Source of the DNA: Mobula hypostoma
Taxonomy: Eukaryota
Direction of reading: 5' to 3'
DNA: 64,000 nucleotides
Assembly: GCF_963921235.1 (NCBI RefSeq)
Contig: NC_086108.1
Span: forward strand, 88,600,001 to 88,664,000
This document shows, one piece after another, positions 1 through 53,675 of the stretch (positions are counted from its first letter, which is position 1; the number at the start of each line of letters is the position of its first letter). The notes beneath the pieces were generated by a model that saw only the letters and a list, made by a program, of their open reading frames with translations, did no database searches and was not told the DNA's origin. The translations under genes were made by a program, and so were the position numbers.

Positions 1-320
1 TGGTCAATGTCTCCCATCCACTATATAATGTACTGGGTGGGCACAGGAGTACATTCAGCCAGAGACTCATTCCACCGAGATGCAGCACAGAGCATCACAG
101 GAAGTCATTCCTGCCTGTGGCCATCAAACTTTACAACTCCTCCCTTGGAAGGTCAGACACCCTGAGCCAATAGGTTGGTCCTGGACTTATTTCATAATTT
201 ACTGGCATAATTTACATATTACTATTTAACCATTTATGGTTCTATTACTATTTATTATTTATGGAGCAACTGTAACGAAAACCAATTTCCCCCGGGATCA
301 ATAAAGTATGCCTATGACTA
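1..320 (+). mobile_element. Rex1/Babar-like LINE 3' end
   Basis: ORF-end pattern GCCATCAAACTTTACAAC, AT-rich UTR, GGGATCAATAAAGTA tail. Confidence 0.6.
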
Positions 321-760: not shown

Positions 761-864
761 TCAAACAGGGTTAACTAAATATCCCCTCTGGACTTTCCAC
801 TAGACTATAACAATGCACTAAAGTGCACCAAGGGAGAATATATCAGAAAGAAAACATTGCTAAG

Positions 865-1078
865 ACACACAAAATGCTGGAGGAACTCAGCAGGCCAGGC
901 AGCATCTATGGAGAAGATTTCAGGCTGACCTTTTGTCAGATTTGCCGATGAAGGGCATTGACCTGAAACATCGACTGTTTATTCTTTTCAAAAGATGCTG
1001 CCTAGCCTGTTGCATTCCTCCAGCATTTTGTGTGTGCTGCTTGGAGTTCCAGCATCTTCTGATTTTCTTGTGTTTGTG
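865..1078. mobile_element. Inverted pair of the Penelope-like repeat
   Basis: ACACACAAAATGCTGGAGGAA...TTCCTCCAGCATTTTGTGTGT arms with two degenerate hammerhead cores between them. Confidence 0.7.
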
Positions 1079-17746: not shown

Positions 17747-19361
17747 TGTAATGGGATCCTGGATTACCTCTATTAACTGTGCTTTCGAAAAGACAGAGAG
17801 CGTTATTTAACACCGACAACTTGTTTGTAAGAGAGAGAGATGGAGAGATAGAGAGAGAGACAGACAGACACACACACGCATGGATGAAGATTAACTGTTG
17901 GCCTGTCACTTTAAGAACTGGTTAACTTTTGGATTTCTGCTGAGTTGGAGAGAGATGGCACCGAGCAGCTCAAAAGTTGCTATGGTGACGGAAGACAGGT
18001 TGTTGATACTTCAAGGACTTTTTGCCTGTTTGTGCATTTCTTCACAGAGAGGAAGGAGGGATTATTTGAATGACAGTTGATGCTCAGCATGGGAAGATAA
18101 AATAGGAGGTCAGATGGTAGACCTCAGACACATGTTCTGGACATTGAATGAGCATTGTTGTGCCCACAGAAAAAGGGGGTTTTGGAGGATCGATCAGGCG
18201 GATCGATCCATCGCTCTTGCAGTGGAAAGAGGAAAAGGTTTGACTGGTGGCGAGTTGTCCATGTGTCCACCCTTGCCTGGGGGATAGCTCCACCACAGAA
18301 AACCGGTCCTCTTTGTTAAAGTCACAGTTGGTGACTCTTAAAAGATTTCGAAGGACAACAGAAAGATCGACGGCGTCAGCTCACCTGAAGACTCAAATTT
18401 CTCCCTCTCTCTCTCTATCACTACTCAACTCAATACCACAAACCGAACTGAACTTTACTCATCATTGTAAGACTGTATCTTTTTACCCCTAGGCTTAAAG
18501 AAGCTTGGTTTTTCATACATATATTTCCACACTTACTGATATATATAATCATTGCTAACCTGTTTGATTTATCTACATTTATATTACTGTATTGGGTTGT
18601 TACTAATAAATATTATTAGTTTATAGCAATACTGGACTCCAAAGTGTTTTCCTTTTTCTTTTTAAATCTTTTTATTGAGTAAGTATACAAAAAAGGTAAG
18701 CCATATAAACATTAATACAATGTTAAAGTATAATAAAATTCCAAAAGATAACAATACCAAAAAGAAAATACTACAAACAATGTAATTTAAGCATAAGAAA
18801 CCAAGATAACATAATAGTATACTAGATTTTATATATATCAATGGAAAAAAAGAAAAAAAAAACCCCAAAAAAAAACCCACCGTGCAACTAACTAAAAGCA
18901 AAGCAAAGCAATGGGCTAACTTGAAACCAAACAGAGTTAAACTTAAAATCACGTCCTCAATCCCGACCTCCATTAAAACAGTGAAGAGAAAACAAGAAGG
19001 GTAAATATTACATTAAATGAAAATATCGAATAAAAGGTCCCCAAATCTGTTCAAATTTAAATGAAGAATCATAAAGGTTACTTCTAATTTTCTCCAGATT
19101 CAAACATAAAATCGTCTGAGAAAACCAAAAAAAGGTAGTTGGAGCATTAAGCTCTTTCCAATGTTGTAAAATACATCTTTTCGCCATTAAAGTAAGAAAT
19201 GCAATCATTCTACGGGCTGAAGGGGAAAGATTACTAGAAATTTTAGGTAGTCCAAAGATAGCAGTAATAGGGTGAGGAGAGATATCTATATTTAATACCT
19301 TAGAAATATAAAGTGTTTTCCATCTCTGCTGGTTCTTTATTCTGGTCCCGGGTCCCTCACA
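17747..19361 (+). repeat. 5' LTR (interrupted by an L1 fragment)
   Basis: Starts TGTAATGGGATCC, ends CTCACA; colinear with 23456-24545. Confidence 0.9.
18653..19309 (-). mobile_element. 5'-truncated L1 LINE inserted in the 5' LTR
   Basis: 12-bp TSD AAAGTGTTTTCC (18641-18652, 19310-19321); minus-strand AATAAA and A-rich tail; ORF2 C-terminus AKRCILQHWK..LEKIR..KFEQIWGPF. Confidence 0.88.
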
Positions 19362-19365
19362 AAAT

Positions 19366-19384
19366 TGGGGCCTGCGTCCGCGAT
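19366..19384 (+). promoter_or_regulatory. Primer binding site, tRNA-Pro-like
   Basis: TGGGGCCTGCGTCCGCGAT just after the 5' LTR, versus canonical Pro PBS TGGGGGCTCGTCCGGGAT. Confidence 0.7.
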
Positions 19385-22300
19385 ATGAACAAATTGGTCA
19401 GGAGGCTGCTTTGAATTGATTGGGGAAAATCCATTTTGATTTGGTTATGTGGAAATACAGCAAAAATGGATGTTAGTGTTGAGGAGTTTATGTTGGAACC
19501 AACCCCGGAAGAGTTGGATGATGTTACGAGGGCTGTGCTGTTGGGAATTGCTCAGAAGTTAAAACTAAAGGTGACCACAAGAATGAGGAGAGCTCAAGTG
19601 CACACGATAATAGCCCAGCATTATATAGATAAGGGAACGTTTGATGAGGAGGTGTTGAAAAGGTTCGTGGAAGGTAAACTTATTGAGAATGAGCTTCAGC
19701 TTCAGTTGGAAAAATTAAGAATGGAGTATGAATTGAAATTAAAACAGTTCAAGAGAGAGGCTAGAGAGGCAGCAAAACAGAGAGCAGAGGCAGCAGAACG
19801 GAGCGACGAGGCAGCAAAACAGAGACAAGTGGCAGCAAGACAGAGACAATAGGCAGAAAAATGGAAAGAAGAGGCAGAAAAACGGAGAGTTTGAAAGGGA
19901 GAAATGGCAACGTGAAGATCACGTGGCAGACTAGCAGAGGCTGTTCAAGCTGGAAAAGATAGAGATGTAGCAGCAAAGAGGTTTAGTGTCAGACCCTGGT
20001 GATTTTTGCAGCTTAGAAGGGCTTGTTTTGTGTGGTGAATTTAAAAGGTGTGTTCCTGATGAGGTAAGGGCATACCCAGATGCAGAGGATGCCGCTACCC
20101 TGAAGGGGTTTGATAAGAAAGCAGACGAAGAAGTTTTAACCCACGGGGTTGAGTTTACTCCAGATGAGAGTTTGCCAGAGAAAAGCTGGGAGGTTTGGGG
20201 TGACCTTGAATTTGAAATTGGGACAAAGGATGACAACCCAGAAGAGGCAGCTGTTCCGACTGAATGTGTTCAGGTTATGGAAGTACCTGTGAATTCACAG
20301 AGTTCTGAACCTTATGTTAAAGCTCAGTTAAAGTCTGAAGTGTCTGACTTGGTTGAAAAGGAATGCAGTCTTTGTGTGTCAGATGATCTTGGTTCAGTGA
20401 ATAAGGGGTTAACTTTGGTACTAGTGGAATGTGAGGATTCTCAGTCACTTGTATTAAGTAGTGTTTTAAAGGTTGGTGAAGAAGTGGAAATTGATGAGGT
20501 CAGTGTTGCTGAAAATAATGGGAAAAGTGCTGTTCCTGGACTTTTGGATAAAGTGCTGGGAAAGGTTGGATTGGTTGTGCAACCTTTGACCCTGCTTGCA
20601 GACAGAGGCCTGCTGAGAAGGGATGTGCTCGTCTGTGGAATTTTGTTTGGACATTTGGAAGTAAGCACCTGCAAGGTCATGCTGTTATTCAGTGTAATGT
20701 TCTGCAGGTAAGTCAGAGAAAGTTGATAAAGAGATTGTTTGGCCTCTTTCATAATGCATACATGATTCTCATCAGCCTGCTGATGGTACTGAGTTTTGTA
20801 AACAATGGGGGTATGTTGACACCTCTCCAAGATAAGAGTGTTTCAGCAATTCAGCTGATGAACAAAGCTGCTGTTGAGGCCTACAATAGCAAAACCAGAG
20901 GTTTAAATTATGATGTGTCACAGACTTTTCTACCTTCTAAATTTCAGCAGGACTTAGAGGGTAGTAAAGCTGAGAGGAAGAAGGAGGAAAGGAAAGGTTT
21001 GTCTTTATTGAGGAAGGAATTTATAGAGGAACAGAAGTGAGATTCTGAAATGTTGGCTTTAAAGGAGATGGCTCTCACAGGAGAAGAGGTTCAGAGAGAG
21101 TCAGCGGGATATTACCTTAAAGATGGGTGCTGATGAGGAAGTGGAGATCAGCTACAGTGCCTGCAAGTCACGTGATGGTTCTGAAAGTTTACAGGGCTGA
21201 AATTTTAAACATGGCTTACAGTATGCCTTTAGGTAGACCTCATGGAGTGAGAAAGACAGTGAACAGGATTAAGAAGAAATTTTACTGGCCTAGTTTAAGG
21301 AGGGACGTTGTGAATTTTTACAGGATCTGCCATACCTGTCAAGTTGAGGGGATATTTAATCAGGTTATTCAAGTCACCCTGCTTAAACAGATACCTGCTT
21401 TTGGTAAATCTTTCCCTAGGGTCATAGTGGATTGCGTAGGCCCACTGCAAAAGACTGCAGTTGGTTATCAGTATGTGCTGTGTCTAGGTCCCCTGAAGCA
21501 GTGTCTTTTGAAAACACCGAGGCCAAGACTGTCGTAACAGCATTCAGTAAGTTTTACACACTGGTAGGTCTACCCAAAGAAATTCAATTTGACCAGGGCA
21601 GTAACTTTACTTCGGGAACATTCTAGAGGGTAGTTAGAGAATTAGTAGCTAAGCACATGGTGTCATCTACATATCACACAGAGTCCAAGGGAGGCTTGGA
21701 ATGGTTCAACTCAACTCTTAAGACCATGATTAAAGCACATTGTGTGAGAAATGGAAAAAATTGGGATGAGGGGGTTCCCCTCCTCTTATTTATTGTTGGA
21801 GATTCGATTCAGAAGGCAGTGAAGGGTAGTTTGTTGGAAACTGTATTCAGCTACAGGCCAAAAGGATCTTTGACCCTACTGAGAATTCTGGAAGGGATTT
21901 AGTAAGCTTTGTGTCCTTGCAAAGGAAAGCTTACAAGATGGTCGAATCAAACTAAGACACTTGTTTGCTAGAATAGCAGCTGGGAGAATTGTTATGGAAC
22001 AAAATGGAGTCGTGGAATCTGATAATGAAGTGGAAAAACATGTTTACCCATTAAATCCAGACTCACCCAGATGTCAGAATTCCATTGTTTTGGAAAATAT
22101 TACTGATAAAGTCTATCAGTTGGACCCAAAATCGCAAAAACAAGTTAAAGGACTAATTGGCATTTTGAATTGGCAGTGCATCACGTCATTATAGATTCAG
22201 CCCAGCCTATGAAACGGCATCTTCACAGAGTCAATTTTGAGGAAAGTAAAAGGGTTGAAGAAGGAATTAGAAACAAGAAAGAACAAGGAAGGAGAATGGA

Positions 22301-23443
22301 TGATTGTATTGGTAGAGTGGGGAAAGCTAAAAACCTTATTAAGATTAACTTGTTAAAAGAATACTGGGGTGTTCCTTTAACAGAGAGGACTAAGGAGATA
22401 TCAGCATTTGGGATACCGTCTCGACTGTATGAATACAATGTTTTACACTTCGGGATGAAAAATGCACCAGGGACATTTCAAAGAATGATCAATTCTGTGA
22501 CTGGAGGGTTAGAAAGCACAGGGGTTTATATCAATGATTTAGTGATCTGGAATGACACGTGGGAAGAGCTTATTGCAGCGGTAGAAAAACTGTTTCACAG
22601 ACTTTCCAAGGCCAATCTTACTGTGAACCTCGCTAAAAGTGAGTTTGGCCATGCCACAGTTACATATCTGGGTTATGTGGTAGGCCAGGGCCAAATGACT
22701 CTTGTACAGGCCAAGGTTCAAGCTATTGCTGAAGTTCCTGTTTTGATGGGCAAGGAAGCTTCAAGAAGGTTTTTGGGAATGGTTAGGTATTACTATAAGT
22801 TATGTAAGAACTTTGCTGACATCGCTCTCCCCGTAACAAAACTCCCGGGGAAGAGTGAAAGATTTGTATGGAGTGACCTTTGCCAGGAGGCATTTGAATG
22901 CCTGAAAACCATCCTATGTTATCATCCTGTGCTCAAAGCACCTGATTTTTCAAAACCATTCTCAATAGCAACAGACGCTAGTGACGAAGCTGCTGGGGCA
23001 GTACTGTTACAGAAGGGTGTGGATGCCATTGAACACCCAGTGGCTTATTTCTCAAAGAAATTTAATGTGCACCAGAAAAATTATTCAACTGTTGAAAAGG
23101 AGTTGTAGCACCTATTCTGGCCTTACAACATTTTGAGGTTTATATTTGTCCTGCTCAAAGACCCCTTGTGATTTACGCAGATCATAACTGTTGGTGTTTT
23201 TAACTAAAATGAAGGTAAAGAATAGAAGGTTGTTAAATTGGAGTCTGATATTGCAAGAATGTGACTTAACAATCAAACATGTGAAAGGTACTGACAATAT
23301 TATAGCTGATTGCTTATCCACATGTTAAGTTGGAAACTGTATACATTTTCACTGTCATCTGATGATTTTTACCTGTATTGTTTCAAACTCTGTTATTTAC
23401 ATTTAGACAAAAAAAAAATCGGCTTTGTCAATTTTTTTTCTCT

Positions 23444-23455
23444 GAGGAAGGGGAG
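23444..23455 (+). promoter_or_regulatory. Polypurine tract
   Basis: GAGGAAGGGGAG immediately before the 3' LTR. Confidence 0.85.
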
Positions 23456-24545
<1,090 letters not shown>

Positions 24546-27149: not shown

Positions 27150-28915
27150 AGACCATAAGACATAGGAGCAGAAGAGTAAGCCAGTCAGCCCATCGAGTCT
27201 GCTCCGCCATTCAATCATGGGCTGATCCAATTCATCCAGTCATCCCCACTCCCCTGCCTTCTCCCCATACCTTTTGATGCCCTGGCTAATCAGGAACCTA
27301 TCTCTGCCTTAAATTCTCCCAATGACTTGGTCTCCACAGCCGCTCATGGCAACAAATTCCACAGATTTACTACCCTATTACTGAAGTAATTTCTCCGCAT
27401 CTCTGTTCTAAATGGATGTCCTTCAATGCTGAAGTCGTGCCCTCTTGTCATAGACACCCCTATCATGGGAAATAACTTCGTCATATCTAATCTGTTCAGG
27501 CCTTTTAACATTCGGAATGTTTTTATGAGATCCCCCCCCATTCTCCTAAAATCCAGGGAATACAGCCCAAGAGCTATCAGACATTCATCATACGGTAACC
27601 CTTTCATTCCTGGAATCATTCTCGTGAATCTTCTCTGAACCCTCTCCAATCTCAGTATATCCTTTTTAAAATAAGGAGCCCAAAACTGCAGACAATACTC
27701 CATGTGTGATCCCATGAGTGCCTTTTCGAGCCTCAACATCACATCCCTGCTCTGATATTCTACACCTCTAGAAATGAATGCCAACATTGCATTCGCCTTC
27801 TTCACCACTGACTCAACCTGGAGGTTAACCTTTAGGGTATCCTACACAAGGACTTCCAAGTCCCTTTGCATTTCTGCATTTTGAATTCTCTCCCTATCTA
27901 AATAATAGTCTGCCCGTTTATTTCTTCCACCAAAGTGCATGACCATATGCTTTTCAACACTGTATTGCATTTGCCACTTATTTGTCCATTCCCTAAGCTA
28001 TCCAAGTCTCTCTGCAGGCTCTCTGTTTCCTCAACACTACCTGCTCCTCCACCTATCTTTGTATCATCTGCAAACTTAGCCACAAATCTATTAATCCCAT
28101 AGTCCAACATTGACATAGATCATAAAAAGCAGCAGTCCCAACTCCGACCCCTGTGGAACTCCATTGGTAACCGGCAGCCAGCCAGAAAAGGTTCCCTTTA
28201 TTCCCACTCTCTGTTTTCTGCCGATCAGTCAATGCTCCACCCATGCTAGTAACTCCCCTCTAATTCCTTGGGCTGTTATCCCGCTAAGCAGCCTCATGTG
28301 CGGCACTTTGTCAAAGGCCTTCTGTGCAGTAGGTTTTCACATCTACTGCGTCTCCTTTGTCTACCCCACTTGTAATTTCCTCAAAGAATTGCAATAGGTT
28401 AGTTAGGCAGGATTTTCCTTTCAGGAAACCATACTGACTTCGGCCTATCATGCCAGGTGCCTCCAGGTACACCATAATCTCATCCCTAACAATCAATTCC
28501 AACAATTTCCTAACCACTGATGTCAGGCTAACAGGTCTATAGTTCCCTTTCTGCTGCTTCCCATCCTTCTTAAACAGCGGAGTAACATTTGCAGTTTTCC
28601 AGTCATCCGGTACAATGCCAGAATCTATCAATTCTTGAAAGATCAATGTTGATCAATCTCTCCAGCTACTTCCTTCAGAATCCGAGGGTGCATTCCATCA
28701 GGTCCAGGAGATTTATCCACCCTTCTCAGTTGTAATTTTCACTGCACGTACTTCATTTCCCTGACACTCTTGAATGTCCAGTATACTGCACATGTCTTCC
28801 ACTATTTCTCTGCCACCTCTGCGTATCTCATTACAATATCTCCAGCATCATTTTCTATTGGTCCTATATCTACCCTCAACTCTCCTTTATCCTTTCTATA
28901 CGTAAAAATGCTTTT
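27150..28915 (-). mobile_element. CR1 LINE, 5'-truncated
   Basis: PDDWK..GNYRPVSLTS, SCLTNLL, KFADDTK, ERVQRRFTRMIPG; 3' tail at 27150. Confidence 0.92.
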
Positions 28916-29156: not shown

Positions 29157-29293
29157 CACTGCAAGACTGCCGCCATGTGTGATCAAACGACTACTTATGA
29201 AGTCCATCATCCAGTCTCCAGCCCGCAGGTTTTCACACAAAGGATGCCCTAGGTCATTGTTGGGTCGAATATCTGCGAGTACTGACATGAATC
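29157..29293 (-). CDS. AGL: AGL exon
   Basis: AG..GT, 137 nt; [45 protein letters not shown]. Confidence 0.96.
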
Positions 29294-30689
29294 CTAGTAA
29301 AGCACAGTAGTTCAATTACATTTACTGAGGGAAACCATTTGTATTAGAAATCCTATTATATACTAATTGTCCACTATATTTCAGTCAAAAAATACGATAT
29401 TTAAATTCAGAGCAAACAAAAAAAGTTGTGAAGGAATTCAGCAGGTCCAGCAGCATGTGCCAAGGCAGAGTGATGGTCACCATCTTTGGATCCTGCAGGG
29501 ATCCTGATTTAGGGTCCCCGTCCGAAACACCATCTACCTCAACAGATGTTGCATGACCCACCAAGTCCCCCAGCAGTTTGCATTATGCTCAAAATTACAG
29601 CATATGCTATCTCATCTCTCCATTTAACATCTGAATATTAATTTACCATAAATCTGTTTTAGATTATATCTCTCAGGAGATTGAGCATTCATTTACACAA
29701 GATTAAACTGACCCTCAAGAGGTTATTTATGTTGAATACAAGGTGTGATTAAATGGCACTGGTTTGATTTGTGAAGAATCAAGTCATTTCACCTGCGCCA
29801 TCCAGTGTGTCCAATAGGTATTACACCTGTTCAATTACCTATTCAGTACCATTTAACGCCTTGATCCTTTCTGTAAAAAGTAGTGATTATGTATCCTTAA
29901 ACATCTCACCAAATAATTAACCAGCACAGTGAATACTTCATGGGCTAATCAGTGGTGAAATGCCATCCAGATATGCACTTTCAAAATTGGTTCCTGAATA
30001 GAAACACTGGACAACAATTTTTTTTTTTGGAAAGTGCTGCTTCCTCAGATTTTTTTTTTGTTTATGATAGACTGCTTGAAGCTGAACACAAATAATAATT
30101 TCAGTCTACTTATAACATGTAGGAATTTGGAGAAACAATAAATTAACTTTTACTGAACATAATACATTTAATTGCCTAATGATGCTCCTGTTTTGTAATA
30201 ATTCAACTAAGTTAAAAATGTTTGGTTGATGATTTTTATTTGTACTCAGTGCTTGAGGCTTCTGGTTTCAATGTCCAACAATAATCAGACAGCATTAATG
30301 GATTCCAGTTGCCCTGATACGGTTTCTCCAGGACAGCAGTGTCCTGGTGAAATCTTTCACCATGCTCATTACAGACAACATCAAGATTTGCAGGGAAGTC
30401 TTCTAAATGGGAAGTCAGAAATTGAATCTTTAGTGACATGTTGCACTTCATGGCATGTTGTCAACCAGCTGCATGTAGTTTGATGCTCTGTAGTTGCCAA
30501 GAAAATTTTCAACAACATCCTTGAATGCCTTCTATGCATTTTCCCTGGTCCCACTAGAAGTTCTTCATCCTTCAATGCCTTCTACATATTTTCTCTGGTC
30601 CCACTAGAAGTTTTTCAAATTGCCTGTCACTGATGACGCGTTTGATTTGTGAACCAACAAAAATGCCTTCTTTAATCTTGGCATCAGTT

Positions 30690-30835
30690 CTGAGTTACTC
30701 CTGACGAAGGGTCTCGGCCTGAAACGTCGACTGAAACTCTTCCTATAGATGCTGCTTGGCCTGCTGCGTTCACCAGCAACTTTGATGTATGTTGCTTGAA
30801 TTTCCAGCATCTGCAGAATTCCTGTTGTTTTTGTT
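30690..30835 (+). mobile_element. Short Penelope-like terminal repeat inserted in the Chapaev3 element
   Basis: Flanked by TCAGTT (30684-30689, 30836-30841); same family as 865-1078, 43222-43338, 46340-46475, 53458-53675. Confidence 0.65.
30695..30734 (+). ncRNA. Minimal type I hammerhead ribozyme motif in a Penelope-like repeat
   Basis: CUGACGA, stem II AGG/CCU, GAAA, CGUC; stem I UUACUC/GACUGA with one mismatch; predicted cut after C30728. Confidence 0.65.
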
Positions 30836-31380
30836 TCAGTTATTCTGAATTGAATTATGAATTGAAATGACAAATATAGGCAATTACAAAAAAATGGTGT
30901 GTCATAGGGAAATTTCATAGTGATTTTCATGATCAGCAGTCCAAAATCCACAAGATAAACTCAGAAGTATTTAGGAAGCAAAGTTTTTGCTGTCCAGTGT
31001 AACCACGGAGGAAAAAAGCTGGCTAATTTGTTCCTTTGTAATCAATGTCCAGGGAAGTCCATTACAAATTCTAGCTTCTACCTTGTTGAAATCACTCAGC
31101 CCAACGTGATCAACACAAATGCTTGTTCATATGTATGGGGGGTCCAAAAGTCATGCCTTTGCAGTCCAGGGAGTACCCCGAACATTCAGTCCTAATACAC
31201 AAATATTAATATCCAACTCCTAATCTGATTAACAAGGGTTGAACCAGTCACAAATTAATCAAAGCAAATCCTTAAAAAAGCACTAAAAATATTTGACATA
31301 ATTTAATCAAAACAAAATTAATATTTAATTGTGCCTTAATTTGATTAGGCCCAGTATCCTTGCAAACCAGATTCACATAC

Positions 31381-31511
31381 CTTGCAAACCTGCATATTTC
31401 AAATGCCCAAAATTTGAAATAAAGTAGCAGCCACCACCATCTTCCTGTTCCTCACTATCACATCGATACAGTAACATGTTAAGGTCAGCCAATGTAAGAT
31501 TGGTAGTGGTT
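31381..31511 (-). CDS. AGL: AGL exon
   Basis: AG..GT, 131 nt; [43 protein letters not shown]. Confidence 0.96.
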
Positions 31512-32309
31512 CTATTGATGAAAAAGAAATAGGATAATTACTTGTTGACAAAATACCACAATACAAAATACTACTATTTACAGGAGAGTACCGCAGCTTC
31601 AACAAGTTGATAATGTGTGTTTTGTTATGTAGAAATTCAGTTTTGTCAATTCAAACTCCCATTTAACAAAGAATGATATAAAAGCAACATTCTGAGGATG
31701 ATAGGAATCTGAAATAAAACAAGCCCAAAAATACTCTGGTCAAAAGCAGTTGTAAATATTCTGCTTTAACAGCAAAGTATTTGCAGTATTTTCTGCTCTT
31801 AACATTGTCTGAATGAATAAAACACCTTAGCTTTTCCTTTCGGGAGGAACCTAGGTTCTATCCAGTTATGTGAAAAACCCACAGAAGGAACCTGTTAAGC
31901 ATTAAAACACAAATTAGATTTCCAAATAGAATTGAAGTATTGATCTTAATTAAGGGCCCATTTCCCTTTTGTTTTAATGTTTAGGAAAAGACCACAATTA
32001 TCCCCACTCAAAGACGTTTTGAAATTCAACAATTGAAGCTCTTTGATGAATTAGTCAAAGTTTATGGGAATATCAACCAAAATAATCTCTCATTAACAAA
32101 CGCTACATTAGAAGGAATACAACGTTAAAATAATTCTCGTGAATTTTGAGATTAAGACGGTTTGGTGGCCTTGTTCACAAATGACATGGAATTTCAACCA
32201 TTTTTATGATGTGTTGTTGCACAGACGGATCTGTGTTTCACCTAGGTCCACTGTTTAACAATCACCAGAGATTAACCAACAAGCAGTTGCCTCCGAATTT
32301 GTGATTCAT

Positions 32310-33370
32310 GCCCTTTTCTGGTTCGCAGATGGTGACTAGCAGTGTTCACAGGGGTCGGTGTTGGGACTGCTTCTTTTCAAGTTACACAGTATGTTGATGA
32401 TTTGGACAATGGAATTGATGACTTTGTGGACAAGTTTGCAGATGATATATGAAGATAGGTGGGGGGCAGGCAGTGTGAGGAAGCAGGAAGTCTGCAGAAG
32501 GATTTAGACAGATTAGGAGAATGGGCAAAGAAGTGGTAGTTGGAATATGGCGTAGGGAAGTCTACAGTCCTGCACTTGGGTAGAAGGAATAACAGTGTGG
32601 ACTATTTTCTAAATGTGGAGAAAATTAAGAAATCAGAGGTGTTAGTACAATGCTTTACAGTACAGGCAATTTGGATTTAACTCCTGCCGCTGCCTGTAAG
32701 GAGTTTGTACATTCTCCTCGTGACTGGGTGGATTTCTTCTCACAGTCCAAATATGTAGTAGTTGGTGGGTTAATTGGTCATTGTAAATTGTCCCGTGATT
32801 AGGTTAGGATTAAATTAAGGGATTGCTGGATGGCGTGGCTCAAAGGGTTGGAAGGTTCTACTCTGCACTGCATTTCGAACAATTAGTCAATCAATAAATA
32901 AATTATTCCAGGAATGAAAGGGTTAACACATGGGGAGTGTTTTATGGCCCTGGGCCTGTCCTCACTGGAGTTTAGAAGAATGCGGAGGATCTCATTGAAA
33001 CCTATCAAATATTGAAAGGCCTAAATAGTACGTGGATGTGGAAAGGATGTTTCCTATAGTGGGTGAGTTTAGGACTGGAAGACAGTCTCAGAATAGAAGG
33101 ATCTCCATTTAGAACAGAGATGAGGAGGGATTCCTTTATCCAGGGTATGGTGAATCTGTGGAATTCATCACCACAGACGACTCTAAATATGCCCAATGAC
33201 TTGGCCTCCAAAGCGAAAGTTGATAAGTTCTTGATTAGTCGCGTCACAAATTAGTTAGGTGGAGAAGGCGGGAGAATGGAGTTGAGAGACATAACAGATC
33301 AGCCATGATGAAATGATGGAGCAGACTTGATGGGCTGAACGGCCTAATTCAGTTCCTTTGTCTTATGGCC
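32310..33370 (+). mobile_element. CR1 fragment with a V-SINE insertion at ~32641-32900
   Basis: QGSVLG, KFADD and CR1 3' UTR on either side of the SINE. Confidence 0.8.
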
Positions 33371-33977: not shown

Positions 33978-34968
33978 CTAGAAAATAAATACAGAATTGG
34001 CTCTTGAAAAAAAATAGATATTGTGGTGTTTATTTTGCTGTAATACTGTCTTGACTGCACCTGTCTGCTGCCCAGCACTCCACTCTGCTGAACTTTATCT
34101 CGATCGAAAAGGCTGAACAAGCAAACCCTCTGACCTGAGGGCCATTCCCCTTGGTGCATTGGGCTCTGATCAGAATTCAAGCTTTAGACATCACCCCAAG
34201 GCTCCAACACAAGACCATTACGATGACGTTGGTTCAAAGGCTAGTTGCAAAAAACACTTAACACCCTCTTAAAAGGCCTGGACAACCAAAAATCATTTAA
34301 AAACTTTTCAAGTCAATGAAAACAATTAAAATGGTAAATATGTTAAAATCATTAAAATACTAACAAAAAAAGAAAATTATGGTTTCAATTAACAGAGTAA
34401 ATAAGTTTCAATGGCTTTGTTCATGAATAAGTGATTGAGAGTTAGCCCCTGGCTTGGGCGTCACTGTAGTGTTACGGCTAGTGTGGTGCCATTACAGCTT
34501 ACTGCTTAGGTGTTCGGAGTTCAATTCCAGTTTCGGATTTTCTCCGGGTACTCCAGTTTCCTCTCACAGTCCAAAGACATACCGGTTAATAGGTTAATTG
34601 GTCATTATAAATTGTCCTGTTGTTGGGTGGTGTGGCTCAAAGAGCTACAAAGTTCTACACTGCATCTCTGAATAAGGTAAATAAATGTGTAGCTGGATGT
34701 GTCCATAATGACATATAGACAGACCATGTAAGATCCTTCCCAGAAGTAGTTAGTGAATAAAATGGGTTTTTTACAACAATCTAATAATTTCATGGTCACC
34801 ATAAGTGACACTTCTAAATTGCAGATTTATTTAGTTACTGGAATTTAAATTCCTAAAATGGTACATTGGAACTTTGAAATCACACTGCCAGATCAGTAAT
34901 CCAGACCTTGTAAACTCTGTTCCAATTGCTTAATCACTATGCTACTGTAAGAAAATGTGCATCTTTAC

Positions 34969-35289: not shown

Positions 35290-37510
35290 CAATAGACAAT
35301 AGGTGCAGAAGCAGGCCATTCGGCCCTTCGAGCCAGCACCACCATTCACTGTGATCATGGCTGATCATCCATAGTCAGTATCCAGTTCCTGCCTTATCCC
35401 CATAACCTTTGATTCCGCTATCTTTAAGAGCTCTATCCATCTCTTTCTTGAAAGCATCCAGACACTTGGCCTCCACAGCCTTCTGGGGCAGAGCATTCCA
35501 TATATCCACCACTCTCTGGGTGAAAAAGTTTTTCCTCAACTCCTTTCTAAATGGCCTACCACTTATTCTTAAACTGTGGCCTCTGGTTCTGGACTCACCC
35601 ATCAGCGGGAACATGCTTCCTGCCTCCAGCATGTCCAATCCCTTAATAATCTTATATGTTTCAATTTAAGATCCCCTCTCAGCCTTTAAATTCCAGAGTA
35701 TACAAGCCCAGCCACTCCAATATTTCAACATATGACAGTCCCGCCATCCCGGGAATTAACCTTGTGAACCTACGCTGCACTCCCTCAAGAACGTCCTTCC
35801 TCAAATTTGGAGACCAAAACTGCACACTGTACTCCAGGTGTGGTCTCACTAGGGCCCTATACAGCTGCAGAAGGACCTCTTTGCACTTATACTCAATTCC
35901 CCTTGTTATGAAGGCCAGCATGCCATTAGCTTTCTTCACTGCCTGCTATACTTGCATGCTTGCTTTCAGTGACTGATGTACAAGAACACCTAGATCTCGT
36001 TGTACTTCCCATTTTCCTAACTTGACTCCATTTAGATAATAATCTGCCTTCCTGTTCTTACCACCAAAGTGGATCACCTCACATTTATCCACATTAAACT
36101 GCATCTGCCATGCATCTGCCCACTCACCCAGCCTGTCCAAGTCACCCTGTATTCTCATAACATCCTCCTCACATTTCACACTGCCACCCAGCTTTGTGTC
36201 ATCGGCAAATTTGCTAATGTTACTTTTAAATCCCTCATCTAAATCATTAATATATATTGTAAACAGCTGCGGTCCCAGCACTGAACCCTGCGGTACCCCA
36301 CTGGTCACCGCCTGCCATTCCGAAAGGGACCCGTTAATCGCTACTCTTTGTTTTCTGTCAGCCAGCCAATTTTCAATCCATGTCAGTACTCTGCCCCCAA
36401 TACCATGTGCCTTAATTTTTCCCACTAATCTCCTATGTGGGACTTTATCAAAGGCTTTCTGAAAGTCCAGGTACACTACATCCACTGGCTCTCCCTTGTC
36501 CATTTTCATAGTTACATCCTCAAAAAACTCCAGAAGATTAGTCAAGCACAATTTCTCCTTTGTAAATCCATGCTGACTCGGACCAATCCTGTTACTGCTA
36601 TCCAGATGTGCTGTAATTTCATCTTTTATAATTGACTCCAGCATCTTTCCCACCACCGACTTCAGGCTAACCAGTCTATAATTCTGTTTTCTCTCTTCCT
36701 CCCTTCTTGAAGACAGGGACAACATTAGCCACCCTCCAATCCATAGGAACTGATCCTGAATCTATAGAACATTGGAAAATGATTACCAATGCATCCACGA
36801 TTTCTAAAGCCACCTCCTTAAGTACCCTGGAATGCAGACCATCAGGTCCCGGGGACTTATCAGCCTTCAGACCCAACAGTCTATCCAACACCATTTCCTG
36901 CCTAATATAAATTTCCTTCAGTTCATCCATTACCCTAGCCCTAGGTTCTTTGGCCACTATTATATCTGGGAGATTGTTTGTGTCTTCCCTAGTGAAGACA
37001 GATCCAAAGTACCTGTTCAACTCGTCTGCCATTTCCTTGTTCCCCATAATAAATTCACCCGTTTCTGTCTTCAAGGGCCCAATTTTGGTCTTAACTATTT
37101 TTTTCCTTTTCACATACCTAAAGAAGCTTTTACTATCCTCCTTCATATTCTTGGCTAGTTTACCTTCGTACCTCATTTTTTCTCTGTGTATTGCCTTTTT
37201 AGTTACCTTCTGTTGCTCTTTAAAAGTTTCCCAATCCTCCGGCTTCCCACTCCTCTTCGCTATGTTATACTTCTTCTCTTATTTTTATACTGTCCATTAC
37301 TTCCCTGGTCAGCCACAGCCTCCCCTTACTCCCCTTAGGATCTTTCTTCCTCTTTGGAATGAACTGATCCTGCACCTTCTGCATTATTCCCAGAAACACT
37401 TGCCATTGCTGTTCCACTGTCATCCCTGCTAGGGTATTGTTCCATTGAGCTTTGGCCAGCTGCTCCCTCATAGCTCCATAGTTCTCTTTGTTCAACTGTA
37501 ATACTGACAC
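35290..37510 (-). mobile_element. Relatively young 5'-truncated CR1
   Basis: Long ORF pieces with KSPGPDG, QHGF, DFQKAFDKVPH, GVPQGSVLGP, KFADDTK; CAATAGA tail at 35290. Confidence 0.95.
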
Positions 37511-38341
37511 TTCACAGAGACTTCATTGGCCGTGAGGCACTGAGGATATCATTAGGATAAATATATTAAGCTTTGGTTTTATTACAGCAGAGGTTTGGAT
37601 AACCTTTGTGCAGAAAACCAACAACCTAATTTGTGGTCTTCTGGTTTTCCCTCACCAGACCATGGAATCTCAGGAATCCACCAACCCTCCCCGATCACCC
37701 CATCATTCTCCACTATCTAATCAGGCAGGTTTCCATCAGTGCTCCTACCACTCCTCCACCCCTACAATCCTAACCACACTATCCAAAACTGGTTGGTCCT
37801 ATGGCCACTTGCTCTCATCATCTTTCCCCAACCTAGCCTCTGAAAGGCATACAAGGTGGTACAGCAGGACTTAGACAGCTTCATACACGAAGTTTCGAAC
37901 TCTTGGGGCAATGCCCCTGCATCTATCAGCTATTCTCCAAGGGAAGTTGAAGGAATATTAAAAGAAAGATTATGGATTTAAAACATAAATATACAACCCT
38001 TTCAACATTAATGAAACCTCAGTCTCATCCTTACTCTCACCAATCTGGATATCCTCATAGGATACACAAAGTTAGTTTGTCATTGGTTAAAGATTACTTC
38101 AGTCCTAGATAAAAATGCAGTGAAGGTAAAAGTACAAAACATTGCATTGTCAATGTGGACTCAATGTGGACTTGGTATTGGAAGCAACCAAGCTGATACT
38201 TAAGAGGTGCAAACTAGTTGAAGGGGTTACTTTTGTTGCTCATCTAACTTAATGATGCAAGTACTGCATTGGGAAGAATATAGAGTGTTCTCATTTTTGA
38301 TGATAAAAACACATGTTTAAAAAGAAAAGTAGAAGCAGTAC

Positions 38342-38492
38342 CTGGGATGCACATTGAAGGTAGGTCAGATTTGTAGTGATATTTTGTTGGGTCTCTAAAT
38401 GCAGTACGTGACACGGCCACTACCGAGTGGTGGGTATTTGGGCAATGTCGTGTTACTGCCACAATGTCCTCATCAACTTGATCCACATACAC
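38342..38492 (-). CDS. AGL: AGL exon
   Basis: AG..GT, 151 nt; [35 protein letters not shown]...MCIP. Confidence 0.97.
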
Positions 38493-38620
38493 CTTAAAAT
38501 ACATATCAACACAGTTGAAGAAAGATCTCGTAATCCTGATGCAATTTCAGTTCATTCAAGTCACGCAAGTTAGATCAATATTTCTGCATTTAAATAAAAA
38601 ATTGTTGCATTTTGCGTCAC

Positions 38621-38776: not shown

Positions 38777-40819
38777 CTATTAACATGTAAAGGCAGAAAA
38801 CAGAAACTTCAATGTGCAGGAAATCAAAATATGTACTGTATATTGTATTTTAATTGCTCCTAGTTACTGTTACAACTTCAATTATGATAATGTCGCAGGT
38901 AGACAGGGAACAGATAAACAGGTAGTATTTAATATGCCAAAAAGCCAAGGTAAGAATATCAGAAATTCTAGTAAACCAAACAATAGAGACATGGCATGCA
39001 TGCTCAGAATTAAAAATAAATGAATAGAAATGTTTTTCTTATAATATTTAACTCACCATTATTACTGGAGGTATAAATAAACAAATTTTCAAATGAAACA
39101 CCTTCCATACATCTTTTTCCTACATGATTGCAAACATTCATGCTAAAGAATCTGGCCAAATCAAACTTACAAAGCTAATAACTGGGAAAATGCATAGCTC
39201 GGGTGGATGATAGTTGGGTTGAGTTGTCCTTTGATCTATGGATTGCTAAGATCAGAGAACACATCAACCCAACTTGCAAAGCTGATGATCTATTTTTTAT
39301 ATTGCAAATAAGAAATAGAAGTAAGAGCAAACTATCCAGCTCCCTGAGATATACCGACATAGGTCATTATCAAATCTGATCCAGTATTTCCCATCTCATT
39401 TCCCTAACATACATAATATACATAAATCTGTCAATCTCAGTCCTCGATGTGAACTGAGAATTCAGAGACATGGCTATGAGTTGAGAACTCAAAGACATAT
39501 CTATGAAAAGTTGCAAAGTTGTATGAGAAGCTATTTCAGGTTACTTTAGCGCTAATCAGCTAACCTTGAATTCTGTGACTTTATCCTCTAGTCTTTAAAC
39601 TTTCCACATATAGAAAACAGCTGACATACATCCTATATAGATAAAATAGCTTTATTTGTCACCTGTACATTAAAACTGTAGTGAAATGCGCCATTTGTGC
39701 CAACGACCAACACAGTTTGAGGATGTGCTATGTGCATCTCACAAGTTTCGCTATTCCTCTCATGCTAACATTGCATGCCCACAACATACTAACCCTTTGG
39801 AATGTGGGAGAAAATTGGAGAATCCAGAGGAAACCCACGTGGTCACGGGCAGAATGTACAAACTCCTTACAGACAGCAGTGAGAACCTTTAAGGCGTGTA
39901 TGCAATGTTGCCTTCTGATGTTTTAATACAAGGTTCTTCCAAAAGTCAGGAAAGAGGCACAACATTTATTGCTTCACAGTATATTTTTAAGTATTGATAG
40001 AAAGTTGAAACACACCGTGATAGAAGCTTGGTAAGCAAAAGGGAGACAAAAGCAAAAAGAACTAAGATGGTGCAGCTCTTTTTATACTACACAGATAAGG
40101 AAAATTCCATTTAAATTAGTAGATAAGAGTCAACCAATGAGGTACCCCCTATTCAAATAATGCAGCACTATAAGAATCCTCCAGAGCTTACCAGAATTAT
40201 ACCAAAATAACAACTAGGGGATACACTGAACAACTACATATTTACACTGTGACAACTATGAAGCATACTAGACAGTTACTTGCATATAAGCATATAAAAT
40301 ACAAGCAGACAATTAATTGTTAAACTGCAAAGAAAATATTGATTAAACAGTCGGATCCAACAATAACGAAATCTATCATACTTGTAAACTCCAACAAGCA
40401 TAGGCCAGACATGATTAGAATAATATCTGTAGTTACCACCACTTTGTACTTCATATCTGAAAAAGCACATTTTAAACTAAACTAAAAAGAATGAAATTAA
40501 AATTTGAGTTTGGAATAGAAAATGAATAAAGTATTCCAGCTTAATGGAAAGCAACCATTTCACACAATTGCTTCACTATCTTCAGAGTTAATGTTTTAGG
40601 TCAAATTTCCACCTGAAACGTTAACATTACTTCTCTTCAGCCAGATGCAGCCTGATCTGCCGAATGATCTCACCATTTGATTTTGCTTTAGATCCACCAG
40701 AACAGTTTTCTTATATTGAGAGATTCTGATTAATCAGGATTTTAATATCAGAATACGGAACAAAACTTAAAAATGCAAATATTTTCTACTTTACATAAAA
40801 TTATGCACCTCAAACTAAC

Positions 40820-42139: not shown

Positions 42140-43510
42140 CTAGAGGCATATAGTGTATACAGCACAAAAGCAGAACCTTCACCCCAGTTCCTCCATGCTG
42201 ACCAAGATGTCTATCTGAGCTAGTTAGTTCCATTTCTCTGCATTTGGCCCATATCCTTCAAAACCCTTTCTGTCCGTGCACCTGTCCGGATGTTACTTTA
42301 ATGGTATCCACCTTTACAGCTTCCTCTGTCGTACACTAACCACCATCTGTATGAAAAATGTGTCCCTCAGTTTCCCTTTATGTTTGTCCCCTTTCAGCTG
42401 AAACCTCTACTCCGTAAGTTTTGTCTTTCCTACTGCGGGAAAAAGACTGTGACCATCCATGTTATTTACGCTTCTCGTGATTTTATATACTTCTATAAGG
42501 TCACCTCTCAGCTTCCTACATTTCAGGGGGAAAAAAGGTCTCAGCCAATCCAGCTTCTCCTTAAGACTAAGGCCCTCCAATCCCAGTAACACCTTCATGA
42601 ATCTTTTCTATACCCTTTGCAGCTTAGTAACATCCTTTCTATAGCTGGGCAACCAGAACTGAGTAAGATACTCCAAGAGTAATATCACTCACAACTTGTA
42701 TAAACATTGGGATTTCAACTTTGTTCTCAGGGTTCCAAATGCCAATTCACCAATCTTTCTATGTTGCAACTTGCAGGGAACAGTGCATCTGTACCCTGGG
42801 TCTCTCTATTTTACATTACTCTTTAGGACCTAGCATTTCATCGTCCACTGCACCGCCAATTTTAGTGTTATCCACAGACTCTCTGACCATGTTAACAACA
42901 TTATCATTCACATCATTAGTATAGATGAGAAACAATCGTAGACCCAGCACCAGTCTGAGGCACACTACTAATCTGTGTAACAGACCTCTATTACCACTGT
43001 CTCCCTCCTTCCACAAAGCCAATTTTGTTTCCAATAGACTAGTTCACCCTAGATCCCATTTGATCTCACTTAACTTTCCAGGCTAGCCTACCATGTGGGA
43101 CCTTGTCAAAGACTTTGCTAAAGTCGATGTAGGCAACTTCCATTGCCCTGCCCTCCTCAAGCCTCCTTGGCACTGAGGCACAATTTCCTAGCACAAAACA
43201 TCACTAACTATCCCGTAACAATAGACAGATGCTGGAAATCTATCACAATGCACACAGTGAGCTGGAGGAGCTCAGCAGGTCAGGCAGCTTCAATGGATAG
43301 GAATAAACAGTCAACATTTCCGGCCGAGACCCTTCATTCCTTATCAGTTCCTGCTTTTCCAAATGGGGGTAGATCCTGTTCCTCAGCATGCCCTCCAGTA
43401 ACTTTACCACCACTGATATTAGGCTCATTGACCGGTGGTTCCCTGGCTTCTCCTTGTAGCCTTTCTTAAACAAAGGTACAACATTAACCACTATCCGGTC
43501 TTATGGTATT
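42140..43510 (-). mobile_element. Old CR1 fragment with a Penelope-like repeat inserted at 43222-43338
   Basis: VVPLFKKG..PGNHR; LRGDLIEVYKI. Confidence 0.75.
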
Positions 43511-46335: not shown

Positions 46336-47221
46336 AGACCTCCATCAGAATGAAAGGTCATCCTGATGAAACATGAACCGTTTATTCTCCTCCATAGGTG
46401 CTGCCTGACTGGCTGAGTTCCTCCAGCATTTTGTAGGTGTTGCCCCAAGATTTCCAGTATCTGCAGAATCTCTCCAGTTCTGTGGGTTTTGAGGTGACTA
46501 TTGAGGGCAATGTGGCAACTGCAGACTCTGCCTTAGGTGAAGCAGAATTTGCCCGTTGACGCAGCTTAATGGGTAGGATATCAGGCAATGTGCTGCTTAT
46601 GCTATTTTCACAGTGCTCTCATATGTCCAAATCAAGGTGCAATCCAAACTGCTTTTGTCCATCTATCATCTTCCTCAAATACAATTATGTAATCATATTC
46701 ATCAAAGGTTAAGGGGAGAAGGCCGGGAACTGGGGTTGAGGAGGAGAAATAAAAAGGATCAGCCATGATTGAATGGCGGAGCAGACTTGATGGGCCAGAT
46801 GGCCTAATTCTGCTCTGATGTCTTATGGTCCTGTTCCTCCTTTCTTCCTACACTTCCACCCAAACCATTTTGTTATCTATTCTATATATCACCCCTTACC
46901 CCACTTTGGTTTGACTATACTCCTACACTCTGATTAGGATCACCCACTTGTTCTCGACCCTATGTGCAAAATGTCATGAACACATGAGACTCTGCATATG
47001 CTGGGAATCTTGACTAACACACACAAAATACTAGATGCTGTCCGACTTGTTGAGCTCCTCCAGCATTTTGCGTGCAGCACGTCATAACTGATCGCATACA
47101 AAAACCAATATGTTGATATGCAGCTTAATCCAAACATTAAACAAAATATTCAGAAATAGTTAACAGGTGGTTGTGTATAGTAGTACTATTATTCTTACCC
47201 ACCTTGGTTAATTTTTAATTT

Positions 47222-51752: not shown

Positions 51753-53457
51753 CTATGACAGTACAATACAAGATGTTTATAATAGCTACTATTTTGAATT
51801 ATTTGCAAACACCTTGTAAACAAATAAAACGTTTATGGTATTTACATTAGAAGCCAAAGTATTTATTTATTTACTGAGAATAAATAAATAGGCCCTTTTT
51901 TTTAAAAAAATCCTAGCCAAATCATGGGACAATTTATAATGCCCAATTAACCTACCCACAGGTACATCTTTGAACTGGGGAAAACTGGAGCGCCCAGTGG
52001 AAACCCCCGTGGTCATGGGAAGAACATACAATCTCATTACGGGCAGCAGTGGAAACTGAATCTGGGTCACTGGTACCATATAGCGTTGTGCTGCCCACTA
52101 CACTATGTGCTGTGCCAAGCTAATGTAAAAACATTTACAATTCTGAGATAGGAGGCTTCATGGTTCAATGCATTCAACCTTTAGAGGATCTCATCACATT
52201 ATTAGGTCTTCAGAGATCTTTGATCTCATGTAAATTGGCCTGCTCGACAAAGTAAATGCATTCTAATTTACTTATTTAACTGGTTTTCTTCCTCAGTGAA
52301 TATTTTCCAAAAGAATTAGATAGCAAAGCTCAACTAAATGGACACTGCATCATACTTGTGAGGTGATAACTGGTCACAAAAAAGTTGAAGAGTATAGTCA
52401 AGGACTTTTCAGACAGCAGGATTGTCATGGCCTTAACATCATCAAGCGTTGCTTTCAACAATTTTGATGATGCCAAGGCAGAGGCTGGGTATGGAGACGG
52501 TGAACAGCACATTCAGGTTTTTAAACTCCCTTTAAATTTGACAAATGTGGAAACTCCAACATGTAACAATGGTCAGGGAACTGCAAAGGAACAATCTAAA
52601 GCTCTACGTTTACTGTCTGGGATCAGTGAAGAATGGCTCATAAAACAGCTACTGATGCACTACATCAAATGGTACATCAAATCTTAAATACCATAATCAA
52701 TTATTCAGAGGTGTCATTCTAGTGCAGCTGGAGATTCCAATAAATATTACCAGTAATTTCATAAGGCACTAAAATAATGAATTAAATGCCTCTATGAAAT
52801 AGAAATATATTTTGGAAAATGTTACACATACACAAGGAATATTGTGTATTCTAAGACACTTCAACTTCAAAATCAAGTAAATTTACGTATTTTGCATAGG
52901 TGCGTTATCTACATATTGTTGGCCAGAAAAGGTAGATTTTATGAAGAAAGCATGTCTGCTTGAGCTTAGTCATTGGCTCGAGATGTCTGCAAATGGAAGT
53001 AACTTGAGCCCAGTAAATATGTGACGTGGCTGAAATGGTTTGAATCAACCTCAGATTCGAGTCCTCATTTGGGAGCAGAGCAATGAGCTAATTTTGCCTG
53101 CAAACTTAAGCCAGATTGAAGAGGGTGAGTGGCATAGACGAGCCTGGTAAGAAGGAACCTTCAAAGTTGAAAAACAAGGGTGTAGAACTGATGAGAAAGA
53201 GACTAATAATGAAGTATTTCAGATTTTGAAGAAGTGAAAACTCTGGAAACCAATCACCACGGAAGTGGATGATCTTATGTCAGAGATGTGAAGATTAAGT
53301 CGAGATGTAGAAGCATCCTTGGCAAATGTTAACTCATGATTGACTATTTAGGGAAACCTTGTGAGTGTGGGTACAGACAATTAATCTTGTATCTAAACAG
53401 CCCGATTGGCATGTTTATTTATAAATGAATCAATAAGGATAACCAATAGTTATACAA

Positions 53458-53675
53458 GAAACACACAGAAAATGCTGGTGGAACTCAACAGCCCAGGCAG
53501 CATCTATGGAAAAGAGTACAGTCAATGTTCTGGGCCGTTTCAGTCCTACTGAAGGGTTTCGGCCCGAAACGTTGACTGTACTCTTTTCCATAAATGCTGC
53601 CTGGCCTGCTGAGTTCCTCCAGTATTTTGTGTGTGTTGCTTGGATTTCCAGCAGCTGCAGATTTTCTCTTGTTTG
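53458..53675. mobile_element. Inverted pair of the Penelope-like repeat
   Basis: Complementary arms 53461-53537 and 53560-53637; stem I CAGTC/GACTG intact, core altered to CTACTGA. Confidence 0.75.

What the first reader, a model, noticed from the sequence alone, without database searches (positions are those of the whole stretch)
30695..30734. Minimal hammerhead ribozyme carried by a dispersed intronic repeat family
Seen: UUACUC-CUGACGA-AGG-gucucgg-CCU-GAAA-CGUC-GACUGA holds the full catalytic core. Stem III is reduced to the self-complementary ACGU. The copy at 53541 has a perfect stem I (CAGUC/GACUG). At least eight family members occur in 64 kb (865, 29415, 30690, 40605, 43222, 46340, 46980, 53458), most with damaged cores. 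Known: Penelope-like elements carry minimal type I hammerheads thought to cleave as dimers. Inference: a high-copy ribozyme-bearing mini-element. The one intact core is antisense to AGL and the sense copies (~915, ~43310, ~53525) are broken, which could reflect selection against pre-mRNA cleavage, though the sample is tiny.
Basis: partly seen in the sequence, partly recalled or inferred. Interest (0 to 1): 0.7.

Follow-up and report, generated by a model that had tools for sequence, protein, structure and literature searches.

The report
Penelope end stub with decayed hammerhead
The motif is a real minimal hammerhead (self-cutting RNA) signature at the end of a very abundant Penelope-type jumping gene, a known pairing; this copy has a broken stem and is likely inert, and intact copies sit in introns in both orientations about equally, so the proposed selection against cutting host RNA is not seen.

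Summary
The copy is not a separate mini-element. It is a 144-bp stub (30693-30836), 137/144 identical to the 5' pseudo-LTR of a retroelement whose long copies encode RT, a CX4CxxC linker and GIY-YIG: a Penelope-like element with Neptune-type motifs. Such hammerheads are published (PMC4209133, PMC11167929). The "intact" copy has a C·C mismatch in stem I and fails a 4-bp stem I descriptor that 41 other family copies pass. The selection idea fails: in 1.5 Mb inside 20 genes, fully intact motifs were 19 sense and 15 antisense (p=0.61). Dispersed copies decay at CpG sites even in the core and show no excess covariation (16 vs 14.6 expected). One less ordinary point: 41 of 81 solo stubs start 0-10 nt before C3 and only 3 near the cut site, so stubs likely copy uncut RNA up to its start. 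The scan noted this family and the start hotspot before in other genomes (42 notes, at least 18 genomes).

The parts
30693..30836 (+). 5'-truncated solo pseudo-LTR plus tail of a Penelope-like element with Neptune-type motifs, from -8 to +136 relative to C3
   Evidence: 137/144 identical to the 5' pLTR of full-length copy L198; 136/144 to L191, L194, L197
30696..30733 (+). Minimal type I hammerhead motif: stem I 5' strand 30696-30700 (C·C mismatch at 30698/30731), CUGACGA 30701-30707, stem II and loop 30709-30720, GAAA 30721-30724, ACGU palindrome 30724-30727, predicted cut after C30728, stem I 3' strand 30729-30733
   Evidence: sequence; column mapping; descriptor failed
30800..30836 (+). About 35-nt tail (roughly +100 to +135); in full-length copies it runs on into the 5' UTR and ORF start
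30684..30692 (+). Possible left copy of a degenerate target-site duplication (TCAGTTCTG)
   Evidence: longest exact shared word 6 nt, plus a 3-nt indel by eye; weak
30836..30847 (+). Possible right copy of the degenerate target-site duplication (TCAGTTATTCTG)
   Evidence: weak
862..1076 (.). Fold-back family copy (inverted arm plus forward pLTR stub); both cores damaged
53452..53675 (.). Fold-back family copy; forward arm has a paired stem I but two core changes
43226..43337 (-). Family copy truncated inside the core, sense to AGL
46350..46474 (+). Old family copy, truncated and decayed core
29403..29607 (.). Old family copy (29491-29607 +, three core changes) with a weak inverted arm near 29403-29456
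40611..40665 (+). Very old fragment, E 0.008
46986..47074 (.). Rearranged fragment of the 3' part of the pLTR, no core
   Evidence: blastn only
29184..29330 (-). AGL (glycogen debranching enzyme) exon downstream of the host intron
   Evidence: PF14702, E 4.8e-16
31355..31516 (-). AGL exon upstream of the host intron
   Evidence: PF14702, E 4.2e-12

Best explanation
The motif is the minimal hammerhead of the pseudo-LTR of an abundant Penelope-like retroelement, and this 144-bp copy is a likely inert stub, probably made when the element's RT started at its downstream internal start site (about +135) and copied uncut RNA back to just before the motif (-8). Shown: family membership, element anatomy, two 3' end classes, a 5' end cluster at -10 to 0, CpG decay of cores, no strand bias. 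Inferred: target-primed insertion; that the two 3' ends are RT start sites (by analogy with PMC11167929); that the 5' cluster is the RNA start. Any cleavage would be by the parent element's RNA, as a two-motif dimer or with help from the element's protein (published for other PLEs, untested here), so single intronic stubs would cost the host little in either orientation.
For: Long copies carry an ORF ending about 320 nt upstream of the motif, with RVT_1 (E 8.9e-6, below the curated cut-off; E 3.9e-5) and GIY-YIG (E 5.7e-5, above cut-off, 1 of 2 EN-bearing proteins; the other E 0.2). The DKG motif, CX4CxxC linker and cysteines between GIY and YIG are visible in translations. 18 of 30 loci picked by the ORF's 5' end have a sense pLTR with the motif running into the 5' UTR: 12 as partial tandems, 3 starting at -10 to -2, 3 fold-back, none at the cut. 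79 of 284 sampled hits are fold-back arms. Young 3' ends cluster at +85-104 (36 of 77) and +120-144 (38 of 77). Solo 5' ends: 41 of 81 at -10..0, mode -4, and 3 of 81 at +25..32. 6 of 14 other solo stubs show 8-13 nt direct repeats at their junctions (read by eye; control words 4-8 nt). In 111 old copies G12 is 55% and C17 51% conserved, like non-core CpGs. Orientation in 1.4998 Mb of 20 genes: strict 19 sense/15 antisense, broken 66/71, all 139/145. Computed energy of the active dimer fold: +0.9 kcal/mol for this copy, -11.5 to -16.7 for three parent pLTRs. PMC11167929 (read: abstract, results, start of methods): two internal RT starts define the tail, the hammerhead cuts only with protein, and uncut RNA is the main template.
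Against: No cleavage or RNA-end data: the run search listed no RNA holder and only contigs were laid. No RT tree was built, so Neptune rests on motifs. Conservation of the motif between subfamily majorities is not significant (9/38 vs 18/63 variable positions, p=0.65). The 5' cluster could in part be a profile-boundary effect, because older subfamilies have a different upstream UTR; I filtered these only by pyrimidine content. RT stalling at the hairpin would also give it. The 3' end at about +95 lies in GU-rich sense sequence, whereas the anole start site is described as AC-rich. The copy's own target-site duplication is degenerate.
Confidence: 0.88

Rival explanations
1. The short stubs form a self-propagating non-autonomous mini-element: a stub starting at the RNA start is itself transcribed, keeps both RT start sites, and is copied again by the parent's protein.
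For: Fixed ends at both sides, direct repeats at junctions in 6 of 14 solo stubs, and stub-sized copies are about half of young hits. Internal RT starts make a short RNA a sufficient template in vitro (PMC11167929).
Against: The window copy has no sequence of its own and is 95% identical to full-length pLTRs. Cores decay. Run-off from the 5' pLTR of a full-length RNA gives the same ends. No tree of short versus long copies was built.
Confidence: 0.12
2. Intact sense-oriented motifs cut host pre-mRNA and are purged from introns.
For: In the window the only core-complete copy is antisense to AGL. A 2026 preprint reports tandem retrozymes under-represented in Xenopus introns (10.64898/2026.07.22.740005, passages read; its main text has no occurrence of 'orientation' or 'antisense').
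Against: 19 sense and 15 antisense strict copies; 95% CI of the sense fraction 0.38-0.73; myosin genes 7/6, CUB genes 12/9; solo only 15/11; Fisher against broken copies p=0.45. 5 of 6 antisense hits in the window are also broken. A single S. mansoni minimal motif showed no cleavage (PMC4209133). A mild bias, or one limited to two-motif full-length copies, is not excluded: only 1 long and 3 short pieces of the 5' UTR were in the sample.
Confidence: 0.05
3. The 5' end cluster marks RT stalling or template switching at the motif's hairpins rather than the RNA start.
For: Fold-back junctions spread over -21..+28. The motif folds into a nested hairpin in which the core pairs with the CGUC cut region.
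Against: Solo ends peak 5' of the hairpin, at -4, and three near-full-length elements also begin at -10..-2. In D. virilis Penelope the start site lies in the pLTR (PMC8557442, passage). The -8 and -4 adenines sit in Initiator-like words (consensus recalled, no call).
Confidence: 0.3
4. The motif match is chance.
For: A loose core pattern has 11 matches in the window; Rfam finds no hammerhead.
Against: The full descriptor gives 41 hits, all in this family, against 0-1 in shuffles, at the position in the pLTR where PLE hammerheads are published.
Confidence: 0.01

Closest known systems
Minimal hammerheads (min-HHR) in pLTRs of metazoan PLEs, including Neptune of fishes (Cervera and De la Pena 2014, PMC4209133; parts 1-2 of 4 read, supplements not read)
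   Same: Type I core, extra nucleotide after A9, palindromic 15.2-16.2, 4-5 bp stem I, mostly solo dispersed copies, opposite-strand pairs, thousands of copies.
   Different: Short stem II (3-4 bp, two G·U) against 7-8 bp in Schistosoma; U11.1 in over half of young copies; much higher copy number (about 190 per Mb sampled). The parts read name no shark or ray; supplements may.
Poseidon PAc of Anolis carolinensis (Frangieh et al. 2024, PMC11167929; parts 1-2 of 4 read)
   Same: Hammerhead upstream of two end classes about 35 nt apart (tail); insertions keep sequence 5' of the cut site.
   Different: This element has the CX2-5CxxC linker that Poseidon lacks; its first ATG after the tail lies at +166, well after the motif, whereas in PAc the ORF starts at stem II.
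Neptune clade of EN+ Penelope-like elements (as described in Craig et al. 2021, PMC8557442; passages read)
   Same: Single ORF RT-linker-GIY-YIG with CCHH, partial tandems, inverted 5'-truncated copies, 30-40 bp tail.
   Different: Nothing found; clade placement was not tested by tree, and Nematis shares the linker.
Non-LTR retrozymes of animals (bioRxiv 10.64898/2026.07.22.740005; part 1 of 5 and passages read)
   Same: Non-coding, type I hammerhead, derived from PLE pLTRs, solo monomers occur.
   Different: Retrozymes are defined as tandem repeats with a motif in each unit; these copies are solo or fold-back.

Membership tests
Minimal type I hammerhead | Core CUGAnGA ... GAAA ... UH | tested here: met
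   Window 30701-30728; 68 of 205 full-span sampled copies keep it
Minimal type I hammerhead | Stem II of 3 bp or more, G10.1-C11.1 typical | tested here: met
   GGGU/GCCU predicted in this copy, with G·U at 10.1-11.1 instead of G-C; G-C in 25 of 58 young copies
Minimal type I hammerhead | Stem I of 4-5 bp (this copy) | tested here: not met
   C30698·C30731 mismatch; fails the descriptor
Minimal type I hammerhead | Stem I of 4-5 bp (family) | tested here: met
   UAGUC or CAGUC with GACUG; 41 descriptor hits
Minimal type I hammerhead | Palindromic 15.1-16.1 allowing a dimer helix III | tested here: met
   ACGU at 30724-30727
Minimal type I hammerhead | Compensatory stem changes | tested here: not met
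   16 observed vs 14.6 expected over 9 pairs in 169 copies, p=0.39; copies descend from few similar masters, so power is low
Minimal type I hammerhead | Self-cleavage (dimer or protein-assisted) | not testable with these tools
   Only contigs available
EN+ Penelope-like element | Single ORF with RT and C-terminal GIY-YIG | tested here: met
   One open frame in L045 holds both; Pfam hits
EN+ Penelope-like element | pLTR / partial tandem with hammerhead | tested here: met
   18 of 30 loci with a 5' pLTR, 12 of them partial tandems
EN+ Penelope-like element | Inverted 5'-truncated copy adjacent | tested here: met
   79 of 284 hits are fold-back arms; longer inverted arms
EN+ Penelope-like element | Optional 30-40 bp tail | tested here: met
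   Two 3' end classes about 35 nt apart
Neptune clade | CX2-5CxxC linker and CCHH finger | tested here: met
   CKRNKCYTC, and CxxC between GVIY and YIG with downstream histidines, read by eye
Neptune clade | RT phylogeny groups with Neptune | not tested
   No named reference proteins were fetched
Non-LTR retrozyme | Tandem repeat with a complete motif in consecutive units | tested here: not met
   Six same-strand core-intact pairs under 4 kb, none closer than 1.7 kb, within 10-kb stretches; sample only, not genome-wide
Separate non-autonomous mini-element | Own diagnostic sequence or clade apart from the autonomous element | tested here: inconclusive
   Window copy is 95% identical to full-length pLTRs with no extra sequence; no tree built

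The most novel reading that the evidence does not exclude
The stubs are a genomic fossil map of this element's RNA: its transcript starts 4-8 nt before the hammerhead core, so the ribozyme is the very 5' end of the RNA, and start-to-RT-site stubs re-transpose on their own as a minimal Penelope-driven SINE-like family of some hundred thousand copies made from uncut RNA.
Probability: 0.2. Interest if true: 0.45.

Novelty: new member of a known kind. Interest (0 to 1): 0.2.

Why it matters
As a hammerhead in a Penelope end repeat it is ordinary. Two results have some use. First, a negative: intact single motifs sit sense in introns as often as antisense, which fits the published view that they do not cut alone. 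Second, the fixed ends give genomic support, in an element with Neptune-type motifs, for the two-start, uncut-template model so far shown in vitro for one Poseidon element, and they predict a transcription start at -8/-4 that CAGE can test.

Tried and rejected
Rfam scan of the window at E<=5: five weak hits, no hammerhead; the mir-2131 hit is the fold-back copy at 53493-53604. Sequencing-run search: no RNA holder listed. Four runs laid were contigs only and show no RNA ends, so nothing follows for expression or cleavage. Strand bias: tested overall, solo only, by gene class and in young copies; none significant. Covariation: no excess. Motif more conserved than flank between five cluster majorities: not significant. 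A full-length two-motif sense copy in L105: rejected, it is inverted pieces. A Penelope ORF fragment at window 37224: rejected; the match is to the first 29 residues of P0001, which appear to be read-through flank, and it has no DNA match to the element. No ORF-bearing piece of the element lies in the window. One search translated the wrong strand and was redone. Paper searches: hammerhead ribozyme+Penelope+shark gave one review whose only 'shark' is the shape simile; Penelope+elasmobranch gave 5 listings, none read; strand-bias terms gave 34 papers, 12 listed, none by title on PLE hammerheads. These cover open-access texts only, and supplements were not read. The strand sample holds 150 stretches of 10 kb; 10 further planned stretches were not obtained. 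Gene strand came from Pfam exon hits; nested opposite-strand genes were not excluded, and copies across stretch borders may be cut.

Full report
Observation. The sequence at 30696-30733 reads as a minimal type I hammerhead: C3 at 30701, GAAA at 30721-30724, the self-complementary ACGU at 30724-30727 and the predicted cut after C30728. A profile made from 30 genomic copies, chosen by long-range similarity and not by the core, finds nine hits at seven window loci; blastn adds the eighth near 46986-47074. AGL Pfam domains map to the - strand at window 61231-61443, 57710-57946, 51553-51750, 38313-38504, 31355-31516, 29184-29330, 6640-6753 and 5227-5421, and beyond the window start. All copies are therefore inside AGL, and the 30700 copy is antisense. 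The motif is not chance: a descriptor with 4-bp stem I and 3-bp stem II gives 41 hits in 1.5 Mb plus the window, all in this family, against 0, 0 and 1 in shuffles.

The copy is less intact than stated. Its stem I 5' strand is UACUC where the family has UAGUC, leaving a C·C mismatch, and it is not among the 41 descriptor hits. Position 11.1 is U, as in 32 of 58 young copies. The nearest-neighbour energy of the active double-hammerhead fold is +0.9 kcal/mol for this copy and -11.5, -11.5 and -16.7 for three parent pLTRs; in all four an alternative fold is lower still (the model ignores tertiary contacts, so only the ranking counts). Of the six antisense profile hits in the window, five are also broken or truncated.

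What the family is. One 34-nt variant of the motif has 1,038 exact matches in the 3.48-Gb genome and the reversed control none. Copies share a 3' end and vary at the 5' end. The longer ones carry an ORF that stops about 320 nt before the motif. One 524-residue frame holds RT, a CX4CxxC linker and a GIY-YIG domain with the internal cysteine pair (the first 20-30 residues appear to be flank). Pfam gives RVT_1 below its cut-off (E 8.9e-6 and 3.9e-5) and GIY-YIG above it in one of two proteins. Of 30 loci chosen by the ORF's 5' end, 18 have a sense pLTR with the motif running through the tail into the 5' UTR: 12 partial tandems, 3 starting at -10 to -2, 3 fold-back. These are the traits given for EN+ Penelope-like elements, with the linker of Neptune and Nematis (PMC8557442, passages). 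No tree was built. The window copy spans 30693-30836, -8 to +136 from C3, and matches the 5' pLTR plus tail of L198 at 137 of 144. That the host is a cartilaginous fish is my recall plus earlier unchecked notes; I did not test it.

Strand-bias test. I located exons of CUB-domain and myosin genes and fetched 150 stretches, 1,499,800 bases, between same-strand exons of 20 genes. The profile found 284 hits, 189 per Mb, and none in reversed sequence; extrapolated, some 6-7 x 10^5 per genome, if introns are typical. Strictly intact motifs were 19 sense and 15 antisense (p=0.61, CI 0.38-0.73); core-only 16/18; broken 66/71; truncated 38/41. Solo copies gave 15/11, myosin genes 7/6, CUB genes 12/9. 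A strong purge of sense motifs is excluded; a mild one, or one limited to two-motif copies, which were nearly absent from the sample, is not.

Selection on copies. In 111 older copies G12 is kept in 55% and C17 in 51%, as low as non-core CpG positions (51-65%); non-CpG core positions average 0.89 against 0.83 (median 0.86) downstream. Changes on both sides of a pair number 16 against 14.6 expected in 169 copies. Five cluster majorities differ in the motif only at -5, N7, loop/stem II edge and CpG sites, but the contrast with the flank is not significant. Dispersed copies look neutral.

Ends. Among 77 young hits, 3' ends fall at +85-104 (36) and +120-144 (38); of 75 with usable 5' flank, 34 start between -26 and +26, 3 between -100 and -27, none at +27-29 (fold-back arms count twice). 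Over all ages, 179 solo hits were examined; 98 continue upstream, and of the other 81, 41 start at -10..0 (mode -4) and 3 at +25..32. Six of 14 other solo stubs have 8-13-nt direct repeats at their junctions; the window copy has only a degenerate one. Earlier notes of this scan report the same hotspot in other genomes; I read them before measuring it formally, after seeing it.

Mechanism. For the anole Poseidon, RT starts at two internal sites that bound the tail, the hammerhead cuts only with the protein, core mutants still insert, and uncut RNA is the main template (PMC11167929). For the Schistosoma minimal motif, monomers do not cut and dimers cut weakly (PMC4209133). Applied here, by inference: RNA starts in the pLTR just before stem I; RT primes at about +95 or +135; priming in the 5' pLTR runs off the RNA end and leaves a 100-145-bp stub, often with an inverted arm; priming in the 3' pLTR leaves longer truncated copies. 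Stubs keep sequence 5' of the cut, so their template was uncut. They then decay. RT stalling at the hairpin is the main rival for the 5' cluster.

Verdict. A new member of a known kind. The Penelope link is confirmed, the separate mini-element is unsupported though not excluded, and the selection idea is contradicted for single motifs. Interest 0.2.

Noticed in passing
window 17747-24504: Two 91% identical repeats of about 850 bp (17830-18652, 23661-24504) flank an ORF with RVT_1 and RNase H-like hits at 22152-23108 (+): an LTR retrotransposon in an AGL intron, antisense to the gene.
   Followed up: partly
window 57427-57565: Hairpin with 65-nt arms, 78% complementary, 8-nt gap, outer 25 nt 96% complementary; no blastn match in the 1.5-Mb sample; Rfam MIR6024 hit far below threshold. 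Possibly an old MITE-like insertion or a hairpin RNA.
   Followed up: partly
window 2728-3246, 10232-11634, 27150-28725, 35294-36868, 45214-46341, 49429-49854: Many fragments of an abundant repeat (161 blastn hits in 1.5 Mb), several with RVT_1 hits; probably LINEs, family not determined.
   Followed up: partly
window 30702-30705 with 30725-30728, and family-wide: The predicted lowest-energy monomer fold pairs the core GACG/GAUG with the CGUC cut region; N7 is almost always C or U, both able to pair. This could hold monomers in an inactive fold.
   Followed up: partly
L131:9476-9594, L067:226-373, L114:7371-7454, L128:2441-2556: A distinct subfamily with a different upstream UTR, loop II and downstream flank but the same core and stem I; one copy passes the strict test at only 71% flank identity.
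   Followed up: partly
window 32689-32811, 34535-34628, 39795-39885, 47280-47446, 51927-52106: Another short dispersed repeat family (39 hits in 1.5 Mb), not identified.
   Followed up: no
G000:C64:52.88-52.97 Mb: A tandem run of near-identical CUB-domain exon pairs spaced about 7 kb apart.
   Followed up: no
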